DNA of 64,000 bases from Escherichia coli (lineage in GTDB: Bacteria; Pseudomonadota; Gammaproteobacteria; Enterobacterales; Enterobacteriaceae). Location of the stretch: the NCBI RefSeq assembly GCF_051903065.1, contig NZ_CP178439.1; one strand, written 5' to 3'. Below, in pieces: positions 3,001 through 9,000 of the stretch. Position 1 is the stretch's first letter, and each line of letters begins with the position of its first letter. Made by a program: the position numbers.

Positions 3001-6000
3001 ACCATCATCGGCGCGTGGGTTGGTGGTGGCCTCGTCGATCGGTTCGGGCGCGCGCCCGTCGCATTGATCTCGGGTGTGGTGGGCGGCGTGGCCATGGCGA
3101 GCATCCCACTGCTCGATGCCGTTGGCGCCCTCTCGAACACTGGGCTGATCGCTTGCGTGGTGCTCGGTGCTGCGTTCGACGCACCCGGTATGGCCGCGCA
3201 GGACAGTGAGCTGCCCAAACTCGGCCACGTCGCCGGGCTCTCCGTTGAGCGCGTCTCGTCACTGAAAGCGGTGATCGGGAACGTCGCGATTCTAGGTGGC
3301 CCGGCCCTTGGGGGGGCCGCAATCGGCCTGCTTGGCGCTGCGCCAACGCTCGGGCTGACGGCGTTCTGCTCCGTCCTTGCAGGTCTGCTCGGCGCGTGGG
3401 TGCTTCCCGCGCGTGCCGCTCGGACGATGACCACGACGGCGACTCTCTCCATGCGCGCCGGCGTCGCTTTTCTCTGGAGCGAACCCCTGCTGCGCCCTCT
3501 CTTTGGTATAGTGATGATCTTCGTGGGCATCGTTGGCGCCAACGGCAGCGTCATCATGCCTGCGCTGTTTGTAGATGCAGGACGCCAAGTAGCAGAGCTC
3601 GGGCTGTTCTCCTCAATGATGGGGGCTGGTGGTCTCCTTGGCATTGCCATTCATGCGTCGGTCGGCGCCCGGATATCAGCGCAGAACTGGCTGGCGGTGG
3701 CATTTTGTGGCTCTGCGGTGGGCTCGCTTCTGCTTTCACAGTTGCCAGGCGTGCCGGTGCTGATGTTGTTGGGCGCGCTCGTGGGACTGCTGACCGGCTC
3801 AGTCTCTCCCATTCTCAACGCTGCCATCTACAACCGCACGCCGCCAGAACTTCTCGGCCGGGTACTCGGCACGGTCTCGGCGGTGATGCTGTCAGCCTCG
3901 CCCATGGTTATGCTTGCGGCCGGCGCGTTTGTCGACCTTGCTGGTCCGCTCCCTGGCCTCGTTGTATCGGCCGTGTTTGCGGGGCTCGTGGCTCTACTCT
4001 CGCTCCGTCTTCAATTTGCTACAATGGCGGCGGCAGCCACAGCCTCCGCCCCAACCCATACAGAAGGTGAACACTGATGCCCCGCCCCAAGCTCAAGTCC
4101 GATGACGAGGTACTCGAGGCCGCCACCGTAGTGCTGAAGCGTTGCGGTCCCATAGAGTTCACGCTCAGCGGAGTAGCAAAGGAGGTGGGGCTCTCCCGCG
4201 CAGCGTTAATCCAGCGCTTCACCAACCGCGATACGCTGCTGGTGAGGATGATGGAGCGCGGCGTCGAGCAGGTGCGGCATTACCTGAATGCGATACCGAT
4301 AGGCGCAGGGCCGCAAGGGCTCTGGGAATTTTTGCAGGTGCTCGTTCGGAGCATGAACACTCGCAACGACTTCTCGGTGAACTATCTCATCTCCTGGTAC
4401 GAGCTCCAGGTGCCGGAGCTACGCACGCTTGCGATCCAGCGGAACCGCGCGGTGGTGGAGGGGATCCGCAAGCGACTGCCCCCAGGTGCTCCTGCGGCAG
4501 CTGAGTTGCTCCTGCACTCGGTCATCGCTGGCGCGACGATGCAGTGGGCCGTCGATCCGGATGGTGAGCTAGCTGATCATGTGCTGGCTCAGATCGCTGC
4601 CATCCTGTGTTTAATGTTTCCCGAACACGACGATTTCCAACTCCTCCAGGCACATGCGTAAACGGAGGTGTGCAGAGTCCCTGCGGCAGGCGACGAACAC
4701 GACCGTCGTCGATTAGTACCGGTACGGTCGGTGGTATCGAAGTCTTGATCACCACTCAGGTCTACGGCTTACAAATGGTGACCATCCCGATACTTGCGTC
4801 AGAGCACCGGGCCGATTCTTTGACAGTGAATCACTCCCGTAAGGTTGTGCCGGTGTGGGTGTCCCGGGTCGAGACGATACTCCGCCAATGCGCCCAGCAA
4901 ACAACCTGGCCATCGCAGGTGGTGGGGAGCGGTGTGGCGGATGAGTTGGACAAGTTGGTGTAGCAGCACGAGCACGGCGAGATAACATCGCAGGAGTTCG
5001 ACATGCTCAAGAGACAGCTGATTGCGAATCGCGATGCAGATTCATAACCCGATTGCGGGTTGGCTTCACTCCACCATCACCGAGCAGACTAGCACGGCGG
5101 GCTCTGTTGCAAAGATTGGCGGCAGTCAGAGGTAGGCTGTCGCTCTGCGCCGATCAGGCGGCTGCTGCGAAATGGTGGTTGAGCATGCCCATGGCCTCCG
5201 TCAGCGCCGAGGGCCCAATGCCAAAAGCTCTCTCCACAAGGCGCACCTCGCCCCTGATGCCGGGCTGCAGGCACCAGGGGCGAGCCTGTCCTTTGCGCAG
5301 GGCTCGCATGACTTCGAATCCCTTGATCGTGGCATAGGCCGTGGGGATCGATTTGAAACCGCGCACCGGCTTGATCAGTATCTTGAGCTTTCCGTGATCG
5401 GCCTCGATCACGTTATTGAGGGCACTGTTGCAAATAGTCGGTGGTGATAAACTTATCATCCCCTTTTGCTGATGGAGCTGCACATGAACCCATTCAAAGG
5501 CCGGCATTTTCAGCGTGACATCATTCTGTGGGCCGTACGCTGGTACTGCAAATACGGCATCAGTTACCGTGAGCTGCAGGAGATGCTGGCTGAACGCGGA
5601 GTGAATGTCGATCACTCCACGATTTACCGCTGGGTTCAGCGTTATGCGCCTGAAATGGAAAAACGGCTGCGCTGGTACTGGCGTAACCCTTCCGATCTTT
5701 GCCCGTGGCACATGGATGAAACCTACGTGAAGGTCAATGGCCGCTGGGCGTATCTGTACCGGGCCGTCGACAGCCGGGGCCGCACTGTCGATTTTTATCT
5801 CTCCTCCCGTCGTAACAGCAAAGCTGCATACCGGTTTCTGGGTAAAATCCTCAACAACGTGAAGAAGTGGCAGATCCCGCGATTCATCAACACGGATAAA
5901 GCGCCCGCCTATGGTCGCGCGCTTGCTCTGCTCAAACGCGAAGGCCGGTGCCCGTCTGACGTTGAACACCGACAGATTAAGTACCGGAACAACGTGATTG

Positions 6001-9000
6001 AATGCGATCATGGCAAACTGAAACGGATAATCGGCGCCACGCTGGGATTTAAATCCATGAAGACGGCTTACGCCACCATCAAAGGTATTGAGGTGATGCG
6101 TGCACTACGCAAAGGCCAGGCCTCAGCATTTTATTATGGTGATCCCCTGGGCGAAATGCGCCTGGTAAGCAGAGTTTTTGAAATGTAAGGCCTTTGAATA
6201 AGGAGAGCATGAAAAACCTCGGGGCAGCCATCGAATGATGCCATCTACAGGGGTTAAAATAACCACCATCATTTCATAACAATACCTGCTGACTATGAAG
6301 ATCTACGTCATCAAAATAGCAGTTCATGGAGTCAGTCCGATGGTCTGGCGTCGGCTGAGAATTGCTGCCGACACGTCACTGGCCGCGCTTCACTTCATTT
6401 TCCAGATAGTGCAGGGCTGGGGGGACGACCATCTCCATCAATTTCACATTTATGGCAAAGATTACGGTATCTCCTACGAAGGAGGCATCGGTTTTGTCGA
6501 TAATCCGTTCCGGGTCGTGATTGATGATTTTGCTTTTGATGCTGGCGATCGCTTTACCTATGAATACAATTTCTGGCACTGTTGCAAAGTTAGCGATGAG
6601 GCAGCCTTTTGTCTTATTCAAAGGCCTTACATTTCAAAAACTCTGCTTACCAGGCGCATTTCGCCCAGGGGATCACCATAATAAAATGCTGAGGCCTGGC
6701 CTTTGCGTAGTGCACGCATCACCTCAATACCTTTGATGGTGGCGTAAGCCGTCTTCATGGATTTAAATCCCAGCGTGGCGCCGATTATCCGTTTCAGTTT
6801 GCCATGATCGCATTCAATCACGTTGTTCCGGTACTTAATCTGTCGGTGTTCAACGTCAGACGGGCACCGGCCTTCGCGTTTGAGCAGAGCAAGCGCGCGA
6901 CCATAGGCGGGCGCTTTATCCGTGTTGATGAATCGCGGGATCTGCCACTTCTTCACGTTGTTGAGGATTTTACCCAGAAACCGGTATGCAGCTTTGCTGT
7001 TACGACGGGAGGAGAGATAAAAATCGACAGTGCGGCCCCGGCTGTCGACGGCCCGGTACAGATACGCCCAGCGGCCATTGACCTTCACGTAGGTTTCATC
7101 CATGTGCCACGGGCAAAGATCGGAAGGGTTACGCCAGTACCAGCGCAGCCGTTTTTCCATTTCAGGCGCATAACGCTGAACCCAGCGGTAAATCGTGGAG
7201 TGATCGACATTCACTCCGCGTTCAGCCAGCATCTCCTGCAGCTCACGGTAACTGATGCCGTATTTGCAGTACCAGCGTACGGCCCACAGAATGATGTCAC
7301 GCTGAAAATGCCGGCCTTTGAATGGGTTCATGTGCAGCTCCATCAGCAAAAGGGGATGATAAGTTTATCACCACCGACTATTTGCAACAGTGCCCGTCGG
7401 CTTGAGATGCACATGTTGGCTGAGGTCGCCGGGTAGCGTGAACAGGCGCGGACCGTCCCGAAACTGGAACACGCGATACAGATGGAATTGATCGCCCGCC
7501 TCCTTGGAGAATTCGAGTTCGTTGTGGCTGACCAAGAAAGACGAGCCTACCCCGCCATTGGTGGTTTTCACCTCGATGAAGCGCTCATGGGCGTCCTCTT
7601 CGAACGACAGGATGTCGAACCCCGCACCGTCTCCCTGGGTGTCGGACACCCAATCCAGCCGCTGAAAAAGCTCTGGGTGGCCGAGCTCGGTCAGGCGTTG
7701 CTGTTCGTAGCCAATCACCCACTGCTCCCCTGCCCGGCCCAGCTTGCGGTTGGCTTCATCGCGAGCGGCATAATCGAACTTTCGCGGTAGGCGTTGCCGT
7801 AGAGATGCCGGGGTACGCACAAGCACTTCACGGGCGGGTGGTTCTACCAAAGCCGCTCGGTAGGTTTTGTCACCCGGAAGTTTTACCTCCTCCAGGGCAT
7901 CGACAAGAGCGCCGACCGTCTGCTGATGTTCCAGAACGTAGGCGTGTACGGATTTACGCAGCAGCAGTTGGCTGTTGCCGCGTGGCTTGTAGCCGTTGAT
8001 ATAGGGCAGGCCCAGGGCATCGAGTACGGCGCTAATGTTCTGGTGCTTGAGCTCGACTGAAGACTTGCTGCGACCGTTCAGCAGTTGGCGCAGTGCCTGG
8101 TTGTGCTCGGACTTGTTGTACGGCTCCCCAGCCGCCTCGGCACGCAGCATGTCGAAATAGTCTTCGACCGTGGCCAGGACCTCTTCTTCGGACCAGTCTT
8201 CGCCGATGCGAATGATGCGAAACCCGAGCCGCGTCAGCGCCGGAACGACGGTCGCCTCGCCACTGGAGAAGCTGTCAGCAGTGAGCGGGCCCTGCTCGGG
8301 AAATTGCTTGCCGAAGGCCACACCGGCGATGGCCTTGGAATCGCAATCGGTGCCGGTCTTCGGATCACGTACCAGGAAGTCGCGGGACTTGCCGTAGCCG
8401 TGGCGCGCCAGGAATTTCGTGCGGCCCAGTTGCACGAACTCATCGATGGCAGCCTGCACGGCGGCGGGGCTTCGAAGCTGGGAGAGTTGAGACACAGGGT
8501 CCTTCCTTACTGTCATGGTGTGCCGGGAACCGCCGAGCCACGAGATTATGAGTAGCCCCTGAACAGAAACGTCACGATAAAAGCCGTGAACGCCACCAGG
8601 CCCATTAAATCCCTTGCGTATTTGCAGCCCGTGCTGTCCAAACCTGTACCAGGTCCGATCAACACGCTCCAACCATTGAGGTACGAAAACACCGCCTGAC
8701 CGAACAAAAAATGCGTGATAGCCGCCGCAGCCATGACGCCGGAATCGTCAGACAGGCTGTAGCTGTTGACCATTGCCCTGTACGCCTGCATCTGAAATGG
8801 CTATTGCCCTGATGGGAGCCGGCTTTTCAGCCACCGACACCAGCGATGCCGTCAATATTCTTTACCCGATAACCATGACCGTACAAGCTAACAAGGCCTG
8901 GCAAGCCAGCGGACTTAAAAAGTCTTTTTTTCTACCATCCCACAAAAAAGTTCGTGGTGGAGAAAAGATAAGCTATGCAAGGCTTTAGGAGACGTGGTTT

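What the first reader, a model, noticed from the sequence alone, without database searches (positions are those of the whole stretch)
5421..6240. IS26 copy missing its right inverted repeat where it abuts the ISKra4-like element
The IS26 at 5421 matches the canonical sequence only to position 6202 and then continues directly into the ISKpn19-like terminus, so it has no right IR and should be immobile as a unit. Either the ISKra4-like element inserted into IS26, or a deletion removed the junction.
Basis: seen in the sequence. Interest (0 to 1): 0.4.

Follow-up and report, generated by a model that had tools for sequence, protein, structure and literature searches.

The report
Truncated IS26 joined to ISKpn19 end
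One copy of the resistance-gene-spreading insertion sequence IS26 has lost its last 38 bases, where the intact end of another mobile element (ISKpn19) is joined to it; the same scar is found in about 138 known multidrug-resistance plasmids, so it is ordinary rather than new.

Summary
Window 5421-6202 is identical to IS26 nt 1-782, with the left inverted repeat and an intact tnp26. At 6203 it runs straight into the exact left terminus of ISKpn19 (ISKra4 family). No displaced right repeat exists in the window.

The break lies in the 38-bp non-coding spacer between the tnp26 stop codon and the right repeat. The 7-mer there (GAATAAG) resembles other ISKpn19 target sites, so an ISKpn19 transposition event most likely made the junction, not a random deletion or IS26 itself.

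The junction is inherited. An identical 80-bp junction occurs in about 138 PLSDB plasmids on many replicon types, always leading into ISKpn19-ΔtnpR-qnrS1. In one IncN plasmid, pMUB-MIN14-3, the missing IS26 tail (nt 777-820) sits 10.6 kb downstream, directly after the Tn2 right repeat. That suggests IS26 was split rather than simply deleted. The tail is absent from the window.

Only 372 bp of ISKpn19 lie next to the truncated IS26. An IS26-bounded aac(3)-IId unit with an 8-bp duplication interrupts ISKpn19, and the rest resumes at 11970.

"Immobile" is only partly right. Published work shows one IS26 end plus Tnp26 suffices for targeted conservative cointegration, and the left flank of this truncated copy varies among plasmids. 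This is ordinary and of low interest.

The parts
5100..5420 (-). IS6100 fragment (terminal IR at 5100-5113 plus the C-terminal 88 codons of its transposase), cut off by the IS26 IRL at 5421
   Evidence: One-mismatch IR hit GGCTCTGTTGCAAA. IS6100 annotation lies under the match in plasmid hits. The translation of 5154-5420(-) matches positions 160-202 of the IS6-family transposase model. The same IS6100 fragment/truncated-IS26 flank occurs in pG17-1 (L020).
5421..6202 (+). Truncated IS26: nt 1-782 of 820, comprising IRL 5421-5434, intact tnp26 5484-6188, and the first 14 nt of the 38-nt spacer. It lacks nt 783-820, including the IRR.
   Evidence: 0 mismatches to the in-window IS26 over nt 1-782, then divergence. 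IS6 transposase model 275.6 bits. Coordinates of the ORF, spacer and IRR.
6196..6202 (+). GAATAAG (IS26 nt 776-782): the 7 bp immediately outside the ISKpn19 IRL, and the presumed ISKpn19 target 7-mer
   Evidence: ISKpn19 makes 7-bp duplications (Tn6396 is flanked by CAATTTG on both sides; and PMC6735626). The other IRL-side 7-mers are CAAGATG, GAAATAG and CAGATCG; all five have A at position 2 and G at position 7.
6203..6574 (+). ISKpn19 nt 1-372: IRL 6203-6228 and the 5' part of the pRiA4b-ORF3-family gene (ATG at 6340, or an upstream ATG at 6295), cut by IS26
   Evidence: 100% identical to L002 4041-4412. The 372-bp stretch occurs in 1844 PLSDB records annotated 'plasmid pRiA4b ORF-3 family protein'. 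Pfam PF07929 matches the complete gene.
6567..6574 (+). Left copy of the 8-bp target duplication CAATTTCT made by the IS26-bounded unit inserted in ISKpn19
   Evidence: Identical 8-mers at 6567-6574 and 11970-11977. L002 4405-4412 is present on both sides.
6575..7394 (-). Complete canonical IS26, inverted relative to the truncated copy; left arm of the pseudo-compound transposon
   Evidence: 820 bp, identical to the reference copy. IR hits.
7395..11149 (-). 3755-bp central segment of the IS26-bounded unit, carrying aac(3)-IId (10025-10909) and a DUF3883-type ORF
   Evidence: AAC(3)-II model 541 bits. Annotations of the matching plasmid regions.
11150..11969 (-). Complete IS26-v1 (GG613-614AA, Tnp26 G184N); right arm of the pseudo-compound transposon
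   Evidence: The variant name is from PMC9412624.
11970..14456 (+). Remainder of ISKpn19 (nt 365-2851): rest of the pRiA4b-ORF3 gene, resolvase-type recombinase, ISKra4-family transposase (13031-14425), and IRR ending at 14456
   Evidence: 100% identical to L002 4405-6891. NF033572 at 380.7 bits. Resolvase PF00239. IRR sequence.
14458..14886 (+). ΔtnpR: the C-terminal 142 codons of a Tn3-family resolvase. This is the constant right flank of ISKpn19 in the qnrS1 platform.
   Evidence: The same flank GGTCGTATGG... is seen in L002, L003, L004, L006, L007 and L009. Translation. Described as the 'ΔISEcl2-qnrS1-ΔtnpR-ISKpn19' platform in PMC5034289.
14944..14957 (-). Solo 14-bp sequence identical to the IS26 terminal IR, lying between ΔtnpR and qnrS1 and oriented as a right end for the truncated IS26
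   Evidence: By my own reading of the sequences, 24 of the first 29 nt match the IS26 left end.
15205..15861 (-). qnrS1
   Evidence: QnrS model 516.8 bits. Annotated as qnrS1 in the matching plasmids.
17281..25206 (+). Tn2-type transposon with both 38-bp IRs. Its tnpA is interrupted by a 2971-bp ISEcp1-blaCTX-M unit (20111-23081). Its IRR (25169-25206) is where the IS26 tail follows in IncN relatives, but not here.

Best explanation
Window 5421-6202 is the 5' 782 bp of an IS26, carrying the left IR and an intact transposase gene. Its 3' end was separated from it by transposition into the 38-bp non-coding spacer between the tnp26 stop codon (nt 768) and the right IR (nt 807-820).

Shown: the exact IRL terminus of ISKpn19 is joined to IS26 nt 782. 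The 7 bp outside it (GAATAAG) resemble other ISKpn19 target 7-mers. The junction is base-for-base identical in about 138 plasmids on IncN, IncF, IncHI2, IncY and IncX1 replicons, and always leads into ISKpn19-ΔtnpR-qnrS1. The junction is therefore an old, inherited scar made by the ISKpn19 transposase, not something made in this molecule.

Inferred: IS26 was split, not deleted. In IncN pMUB-MIN14-3 the missing tail (nt 777-820) lies 10.6 kb downstream, directly after the Tn2 IRR. The overlap is AATAA(G), which fits a 5-bp Tn3-type duplication. A further plasmid in that lineage, p2017.03.04CC_3, still carries the ISKpn19 IRR end. The simplest route has ISKpn19 and Tn2 both inserting into the same AT-rich spot of one IS26; either order gives the same intermediate. 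The qnrS1 segment was then placed between them by homologous exchange with an ISKpn19-ΔtnpR-qnrS1-ΔISEcl2-Tn2 platform.

In the window's lineage the tail was later lost. The left flank was exchanged and is now an IS6100 fragment. An IS26-aac(3)-IId-IS26 unit inserted into ISKpn19 at nt 365-372 with an 8-bp duplication.

Function (inferred from published work): the truncated IS26 cannot perform copy-in transposition on its own. It keeps one end plus Tnp26, which is what the targeted conservative reaction needs, and 782 bp of homology for RecA. It therefore remains a recombination hotspot rather than a dead relic.
For: - Breakpoint and intact tnp26.
- Exact ISKpn19 terminus, with the same first base in six other flank contexts.
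- 7-bp duplication of Tn6396: L007, and PMC6735626.
- IRL-side 7-mers CAAATTG, CAAGATG, GAAATAG, CAGATCG, GAATAAG.
- Identical 80-bp junction in about 138 PLSDB records (148 records reach at least 80% coverage, minus 10 that are two separate halves). Examples on different replicons.
- The truncated-IS26 body has 0-1 mismatches in all of these, and there are 6 different left flanks among 9 records.
- Tail nt 777-820 lies directly after the Tn2 IRR in pMUB-MIN14-3, whose only IS26 is the truncated one.
- The same Tn2-IRR/tail junction occurs in 13 PLSDB records.
- p2017.03.04CC_3 carries the tail, the full 429-bp ΔtnpR and ISKpn19 nt 2255-2851.
- pVQS1 has a shorter ΔtnpR, so it cannot be the ancestor.
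- An independent clean Tn3-family insertion at IS26 nt 774-778, with TSD TTGAA and both halves kept, in p4_SCLZS62.
- Split ISKpn19 and the 8-bp TSD in the window.
Against: - No reciprocal or intermediate junction was found. The junctions searched were ISKpn19 IRR or IRL followed by IS26 nt 776-820, IS26 nt ..781 followed by Tn2 IRL, and an ISKpn19 end followed by GAATAA and Tn2 IRL. They were absent from PLSDB, from 5,426 complete E. coli genomes and from GTDB representative genomes.
- Of the 13 records that carry the tail I examined 8. Only one, pMUB-MIN14-3, has the truncated IS26 and the tail together. Its assembly carries many single-base indels.
- The 6-bp overlap (AATAAG) fits neither a 5-bp nor a 7-bp duplication exactly. 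It needs one coincidental G.
- The IS26 left-end flank and the tail flank in the IncN backbone do not form an 8-bp duplication, so the two pieces could come from different IS26 copies.
- The 'target consensus' rests on five sites, one of which is the site in question.
- No single ISKpn19 copy examined has matching 7-bp repeats at both ends. That pattern is also expected if ISKpn19 often makes adjacent deletions.
Confidence: 0.7

Rival explanations
1. ISKpn19-mediated adjacent deletion. An ISKpn19 already sat some distance from an intact IS26 or an IS26::Tn2. It carried out intramolecular replicative transposition with its IRL attacking GAATAAG in the IS26 3' spacer. This deleted everything in between, including the IS26 right IR, so no reciprocal junction ever existed.
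For: - The exact ISKpn19 terminus and a plausible target 7-mer.
- No reciprocal junction in any collection searched.
- ISKpn19 encodes a resolvase-type recombinase, which is typical of elements that form cointegrates.
- None of the single ISKpn19 copies examined has matching 7-bp repeats; the IRR flank ΔtnpR is constant while the IRL flank varies.
- The literature repeatedly reports neighbours 'truncated by ISKpn19': a Tn3 lacking its IR (PMC6142883), Tn3000 and ISAba125 (PMC9158518), and ecoRIImet (PMC5027574).
Against: - It does not explain why the IS26 tail starting at nt 777 sits after the Tn2 IRR in the same IncN plasmid, in the same orientation, unless the deletion end-point coincided to within 1 nt with a pre-existing IS26/Tn2 boundary.
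- Replicative transposition of ISKpn19 has not been shown experimentally in anything I could read.
Confidence: 0.22
2. The IS26/ISKpn19 junction and the Tn2-IRR/IS26-tail junction are unrelated events in different IS26 copies. They are close (nt 782 versus nt 777) only because the AT-rich spacer is a hotspot. pMUB-MIN14-3 would then have acquired both by homologous exchange between a pVQS1-type IncN plasmid and a plasmid carrying the truncated-IS26-ISKpn19-qnrS1 module.
For: - Only 1 of the 8 tail-bearing records I examined also has the truncated IS26.
- A third, clearly independent Tn3-family insertion lies at nt 774-778.
- There is no 8-bp duplication around the split IS26 in the IncN backbone.
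- A double crossover in IS26 (782 bp) and in the more than 7 kb of shared qnrS1-Tn2 DNA would give exactly pMUB-MIN14-3.
Against: p2017.03.04CC_3 shows that the tail-bearing lineage once had ISKpn19 and the full 429-bp ΔtnpR. An ISKpn19-containing ancestor is therefore required anyway, and pMUB-MIN14-3 is the simplest candidate for it.
Confidence: 0.3
3. Non-transpositional deletion, by illegitimate recombination or replication slippage, removed the IS26 right end and whatever lay between it and ISKpn19.
For: There is no target duplication at the two ends of this ISKpn19 copy.
Against: - The breakpoint coincides to the base with the ISKpn19 terminus, as defined by six other contexts and by the 7-bp repeats of Tn6396.
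- A random deletion end-point would hit that base with a probability of roughly 1 in 10^3.
- There is no microhomology beyond a single G.
Confidence: 0.03
4. Assembly artefact: a mis-join at a repeat.
For: IS26-rich regions are difficult to assemble.
Against: The identical junction occurs in about 138 independently sequenced complete plasmids from many laboratories, hosts and countries.
Confidence: 0.01

Closest known systems
Truncated IS26-ISKpn19-ΔtnpR-qnrS1 module of public plasmids, e.g. S. Typhi pK91 (NZ_CP029912), E. coli pMUB-MIN14-3 (NZ_CP069649) and E. hormaechei pG17-1 (NZ_CP079936)
   Same: The junction is identical (IS26 nt 782 joined to ISKpn19 nt 1), and the IS26 and ISKpn19 sequences are 100% identical. 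pG17-1 also shares the IS6100 fragment on the left.
   Different: In those plasmids ISKpn19 is uninterrupted. In the window an IS26-aac(3)-IId-IS26 unit splits it after nt 372. No PLSDB record has that arrangement; the best coverage found was 92%.
qnrS1 platform ΔISEcl2-qnrS1-ΔtnpR-ISKpn19, and the ISKpn19 composite transposon Tn6396 (PMC5034289, PMC6735626)
   Same: The same ISKpn19, the same IRR/ΔtnpR junction and the same qnrS1 segment.
   Different: Tn6396 has two inverted ISKpn19 copies with IRLs facing outward and a 7-bp duplication in umuC. Here there is a single copy, whose IRL abuts IS26 with no matching repeat.
IS26 split by a Tn3-family element in Raoultella planticola p4_SCLZS62 (NZ_CP082172)
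   Same: The insertion is in the same non-coding 3' spacer of IS26 (nt 774-778, against 776-782 here), leaving tnp26 intact.
   Different: That case is a clean insertion with a 5-bp duplication, and both IS26 halves remain in place. In the window the 3' half is missing and the inserted element is ISKpn19.
IncN plasmids of the pVQS1 type (NC_019124; Karczmarczyk et al. 2012, cited in PMC5844971)
   Same: They carry the IS26 tail nt 777-820 after the Tn2 IRR, and the same qnrS1-ΔISEcl2-Tn2 segment.
   Different: pVQS1 has a complete IS26 abutting a shorter ΔtnpR and has no ISKpn19. The window has the truncated IS26 and ISKpn19 but not the tail.
Experimental IS26 derivatives with one outer end inactivated (Harmer & Hall 2017, as summarised in PMC7885326 and PMC8722046)
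   Same: One functional terminal IR plus an intact Tnp26.
   Different: Those were engineered point changes tested in mating-out assays. The natural truncation at nt 782 has not been tested.

Membership tests
IS26 (IS6/IS26 family insertion sequence) | Transposase Tnp26 (234 aa, DDE, IS6 family) | tested here: met
   The DNA is identical to canonical IS26 over nt 1-782, which includes the whole ORF at nt 64-768. NF033587 scores 275.6 bits against a cut-off of 125.
IS26 (IS6/IS26 family insertion sequence) | Two perfect 14-bp terminal inverted repeats bounding an 820-bp element | tested here: not met
   The IRL is present at 5421-5434. Nt 783-820, including the IRR, are absent, and no displaced copy exists in the window. 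This is a truncated IS26, not a complete member.
IS26 (IS6/IS26 family insertion sequence) | 8-bp target-site duplication at the two ends | tested here: not met
   The left flank is TTATTGAG and the right side is ISKpn19. Absence of a duplication is usual for IS26 copies in mosaic resistance regions.
ISKpn19 (ISKra4 family) | ISKra4-family transposase | tested here: met
   Window 13031-14425 scores 380.7 bits on NF033572 against a cut-off of 205. PGAP names the identical protein WP_001493761.1 'ISKra4-like element ISKpn19 family transposase'.
ISKpn19 (ISKra4 family) | Imperfect terminal IRs (GAGAGCAT[G/A]AAAAA..T.GGGGCAGC) bounding 2851 bp that carry three ORFs (pRiA4b-ORF3 family, resolvase, transposase) | tested here: met
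   The IRs align at 21 of the first 26 positions. Once the IS26-bounded unit and one copy of the 8-bp duplication are removed, window 6203-6574 plus 11978-14456 equals the 2851-bp element of L002 at 100% identity. Domains are shown. I could not compare with the ISfinder reference entry itself.
ISKpn19 (ISKra4 family) | 7-bp target-site duplication | tested here: not met
   The left 7-mer is GAATAAG and the right 7-mer is GGTCGTA. The 7-bp duplication is seen only for the composite Tn6396 (PMC6735626).
IS26 pseudo-compound transposon (window 6575-11969) | Two directly oriented IS26 copies flanking a resistance segment; an 8-bp duplication when newly inserted | tested here: met
   Both copies are on the minus strand. 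CAATTTCT is present on both sides. The central segment carries aac(3)-IId.

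The most novel reading that the evidence does not exclude
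The 38-bp spacer between the tnp26 stop codon and the right IR may be a privileged 'cargo-loading' site of IS26. Insertions there (ISKpn19 at nt 776-782, Tn2 at 777-781, a Tn3-family/KPC element at 774-778) leave the transposase gene and both terminal repeats intact. A split IS26, such as the 11.4-kb IS26::[ISKpn19-qnrS1-Tn2-blaTEM] of IncN pMUB-MIN14-3, could then still move as one giant IS26 derivative. Even half-copies like the one in this window would keep driving rearrangements through their single end, or by pairing with surrogate IS26-type repeats such as the solo one at 14944-14957.
Probability: 0.07. Interest if true: 0.45.

Novelty: already known. Interest (0 to 1): 0.15.

Why it matters
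It matters little in itself. The truncated IS26 is a marker scar of one widely disseminated qnrS1 module, and it can be used to trace that module across IncN, IncF, IncHI2, IncY and IncX1 plasmids.

Two points are useful for people who annotate resistance regions. First, a 'ΔIS26' that keeps IRL and tnp26 should not be treated as inert, because one end is enough for the efficient targeted conservative reaction. Second, the non-coding 3' spacer of IS26 has been hit independently by at least two and probably three different transposons, so 'split' IS26 copies whose halves lie kilobases apart should be looked for before a deletion is called.

Tried and rejected
1. Reciprocal junctions were searched as 100-nt chimeric queries: ISKpn19 IRR followed by GAATAAG and IS26 nt 783-820, and ISKpn19 IRL (reverse complement) followed by the same. 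PLSDB gave only two-piece or partial hits. The closest, p1762RFN, turned out to be an unrelated complete IS26 inserted about 88 bp into ISKpn19.

2. A 54-nt probe for an intact IS26::Tn2 left junction found no exact hit in PLSDB. The best hit led to the independent insertion at nt 774-778 in p4_SCLZS62.

3. All three hypothetical junctions were searched together against 5,426 complete E. coli genomes. There was no full-length hit. Three of the four records with a 33-nt 'GAATAA + Tn2 IRL' hit were inspected and are unrelated contexts.

4. Two pattern scans of the GTDB representative genomes looked for an ISKpn19 end followed within 0-9 nt by a Tn2 IR or by the IS26 tail. Both gave 0 hits.

5. 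A SNP-haplotype comparison meant to decide whether pMUB-MIN14-3 is ancestral or recombinant was uninformative. Its differences from all relatives are mostly single-base indels, probably sequencing errors.

6. I looked for 8-bp duplications that would show the split IS26, or the truncated IS26 paired with the solo IR at 14944-14957, moving as a unit. None was found.

7. The literature search found many maps containing ISKpn19 and IS26, but no paper in the library that discusses this particular junction.

8. I considered a hybrid transposition using the ISKpn19 IRL and the Tn2 IRR as the two ends. I rejected it because the two transposases and their ends are unrelated, and because the 6-bp overlap fits neither element's duplication length.

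Full report
**Observation.** The window contains 8 complete IS26 copies plus one further IS26 left end at 5421. That copy is identical to a complete in-window copy (1048-1867) for nt 1-782, which is window 5421-6202. After that, 32 of the next 38 bases differ. In IS26 coordinates tnp26 runs from nt 64 to 768, a 38-nt non-coding spacer covers 769-806, and the right IR is 807-820. The break at 782/783 therefore falls in the spacer. The transposase gene (window 5484-6188) is intact and scores 275.6 bits on the IS6-family model. The missing 38 bp occur in the window only as parts of the eight complete copies, so no right IR has been displaced by a small insertion.

**What it abuts.** From 6203 the sequence reads GAGAGCATGAAAAACCTCGGGGCAGC. 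The same sequence, starting at the same base, is found next to six other kinds of DNA in public plasmids: a Tn3-family tnpA, relE, three different umuC sites, and IS26. Its imperfect inverted copy ends a 2851-bp element 2.85 kb further on. That element carries three genes: a pRiA4b-ORF3-family gene, a resolvase-type recombinase, and a transposase. The transposase scores 380.7 bits on the ISKra4-family model against a cut-off of 205. PGAP names the identical protein 'ISKra4-like element ISKpn19 family transposase'. In p205880-qnrS two inverted copies form Tn6396, flanked by the 7-bp repeat CAAATTG. This matches the published description (PMC6735626) and fixes the element's first base. The truncated IS26 is therefore joined to the precise IRL terminus of ISKpn19.

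**ISKpn19 is itself split here.** Only nt 1-372 of ISKpn19 follow the truncated IS26 (6203-6574). Next comes a complete IS26 on the minus strand (6575-7394). It is followed by 3755 bp carrying aac(3)-IId, and then by a second minus-strand IS26 (11150-11969) of the G184N variant IS26-v1. ISKpn19 resumes at nt 365 (window 11970) and continues to its IRR at 14456. After it come ΔtnpR, a solo IS26-type 14-bp repeat, and qnrS1. The 8 bp CAATTTCT are present on both sides. This is therefore an IS26 pseudo-compound transposon inserted into ISKpn19. No PLSDB record contains the resulting truncated-IS26/372-bp/IS26 arrangement.

**The junction is inherited.** An 80-bp probe centred on the junction matches about 138 PLSDB plasmids perfectly and in one piece. 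That figure comes from 148 records with at least 80% coverage, less 10 that are two separate halves. For comparison, 1844 records carry the ISKpn19 left end. The examples examined sit on IncN, IncFIB (S. Typhi pK91), IncFIA/FIB, IncHI2, IncY, IncX1 and IncF plasmids from three continents, always followed by intact ISKpn19-ΔtnpR-qnrS1. The 782-bp IS26 part has 0-1 mismatches in all of them. The DNA to its left, however, falls into six different contexts among nine records. The window shares its IS6100 fragment with E. hormaechei pG17-1.

**Where the missing end is.** In IncN pMUB-MIN14-3 the truncated copy is the only IS26 in the plasmid. IS26 nt 777-820 lie 10.6 kb downstream in the same orientation, immediately after the 38-bp right IR of Tn2 (...GTCAGACCCC|AATAAGACAAAAGG...). 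Between the two pieces lie ISKpn19, ΔtnpR, qnrS1, ΔISEcl2 and Tn2. The Tn2-IRR/tail junction occurs in 13 PLSDB records. Six of the seven tail flanks I compared are the same IncN backbone sequence.

The other tail-bearing records I examined are of two kinds. Three are of the pVQS1 type, with a complete IS26 abutting a shortened (162-bp) ΔtnpR and no ISKpn19. One, p2017.03.04CC_3, has the full 429-bp ΔtnpR plus the last 597 bp of ISKpn19, cut by IS26. A shortened ΔtnpR cannot regrow, so the ancestor of this lineage must have carried ISKpn19. pMUB-MIN14-3 is the simplest picture of that ancestor. In the window the Tn2 IRR (25169-25206) is followed by other DNA and the tail is absent.

**How the junction arose.** IS26 activity always preserves IS26 ends, so IS26 did not make it. 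A random deletion would not stop exactly at the ISKpn19 terminus. The 7 bp outside the IRL (GAATAAG) share A at position 2, G at position 7 and an A/T-rich centre with the four other IRL-side 7-mers. An ISKpn19 transposition event is therefore the best reading.

The overlap between the two IS26 pieces is AATAA plus one G. That fits a 5-bp Tn3-family duplication at nt 777-781. A third, unambiguous Tn3-family insertion at nt 774-778, with TSD TTGAA and both halves retained, exists in Raoultella p4_SCLZS62. The AT-rich stretch TTTGAATAAG of the spacer is thus a repeated target.

Whichever of ISKpn19 and Tn2 inserted first, the product is the same: IS26(1-782)|ISKpn19|GAATAA|Tn2|IS26(777-820). Homologous exchange with the common platform ISKpn19-ΔtnpR-qnrS1-ΔISEcl2-Tn2 would then give the pMUB-MIN14-3 structure without any coincidental deletion end-point. 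This step is inference. I found no intermediate or reciprocal junction in PLSDB, in 5,426 E. coli genomes or in GTDB representative genomes.

**The main rival.** The alternative is an ISKpn19-mediated adjacent deletion. Several observations favour it:
- There are no reciprocal junctions.
- ISKpn19 carries a resolvase gene.
- None of the single ISKpn19 copies examined has matching 7-bp repeats.
- Published reports describe neighbours 'truncated by ISKpn19' (PMC6142883, PMC9158518, PMC5027574).

I put about 0.2-0.25 on it. It is also possible, at about 0.3 and overlapping with either mechanism, that the IS26/ISKpn19 junction and the Tn2-IRR/tail junction arose in different IS26 copies and met later by recombination.

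**What the truncated copy can do.** Without a right IR it cannot carry out copy-in transposition by itself. [quoted passage not shown] This copy has the left end, the full transposase, and 782 bp identical to its eight neighbours. The six different left flanks among plasmids with the identical right junction fit continued exchange at that end. Whether that exchange is Tnp26-catalysed or RecA-dependent cannot be told from sequence. 'Immobile as a unit' is therefore only partly right.

**Comparison and verdict.** The feature is a truncated IS26 and fails the two-IR criterion for a complete IS26. It is joined to a bona fide ISKpn19. The arrangement is the left boundary of a well-known, widely disseminated qnrS1 module, and the surrounding platform and Tn6396 are published (PMC5034289, PMC6735626). 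The junction itself is present in many deposited plasmids, although none of the papers I searched discusses it. It is an ordinary mosaic scar: already known, of low interest. The window-specific detail is the IS26-aac(3)-IId-IS26 unit nested in ISKpn19. The only mildly novel idea left open is that the IS26 3' spacer acts as a cargo-loading hotspot that yields still-mobile giant IS26 derivatives.

Noticed in passing
window 6575-11969: An IS26 (canonical)-aac(3)-IId segment-IS26-v1 pseudo-compound transposon of 5395 bp is inserted in ISKpn19 at nt 365-372 with an 8-bp duplication, CAATTTCT. Its two arms are different IS26 variants. That suggests an IS26 insertion followed by incorporation of a translocatable unit, or the reverse order. 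The arrangement is not present in PLSDB.
   Followed up: partly
window 11150-11969, 50780-51599, 57590-58409, 61956-62775: Four of the eight complete IS26 copies are IS26-v1 (GG to AA at nt 613-614, Tnp26 G184N). From memory, not checked in a paper here, this variant has been reported as having enhanced activity. The other four complete copies and the truncated copy are canonical.
   Followed up: partly
window 14944-14957 (and inward to about 14915): A solo 14-bp sequence identical to the IS26 terminal repeat lies between the ΔtnpR stop codon and qnrS1. By my own count, 24 of the first 29 nt match the IS26 left end, so it looks like a relic of an IS26-family element. It is oriented so that it could serve as a surrogate right end for the truncated IS26. 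I found no 8-bp duplication showing that it has been used.
   Followed up: partly
window 17281-25206: A complete Tn2-type transposon with both 38-bp IRs, tnpR and blaTEM. Its tnpA is interrupted by a 2971-bp ISEcp1-blaCTX-M unit (20111-23081). The Tn2 flanks (TTTTA on the left, TGTTA on the right) are not a duplication. The PBP-like gene and blaLAP-2 to its right (25450-28120) are inverted relative to their usual orientation with respect to qnrS1.
   Followed up: no
window 1048-5420: The standard IS26-mph(A)-mrx-mphR(A)-IS6100 module. Here its IS6100 is cut down to 321 bp by the left end of the truncated IS26.
   Followed up: partly
L025 (CP056847.1, pRHBSTW-00122_2), about locus 1200-2454: The 44-bp IS26 tail after the Tn2 IRR is followed here by aph(3')-Ia and an IS26, instead of the IncN backbone seen in six other records. 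The DNA outside a mere 44-bp IS26 remnant has therefore been exchanged. This hints that the isolated right IR can still be used by Tnp26.
   Followed up: no
L010 (NZ_CP082172.1, Raoultella planticola p4_SCLZS62), locus 5247-11134: An IS26 is split cleanly by a Tn3-family element carrying ISKpn27 (a blaKPC-type context) at nt 774-778, with 5-bp duplication TTGAA. Both IS26 halves and tnp26 are retained. This is a second natural 'IS26 with cargo in its 3' spacer'.
   Followed up: partly
window 29249-62775: The rest of the window is a dense IS26-punctuated resistance island. It carries aadA and lnu(F), sul3, a dcm-type methylase, an APH(6)-I family gene (likely aph(6)-Id), tet(A), Tn3-family tnpA fragments and umuC. 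None of the individual IS26 copies has an 8-bp duplication.
   Followed up: no
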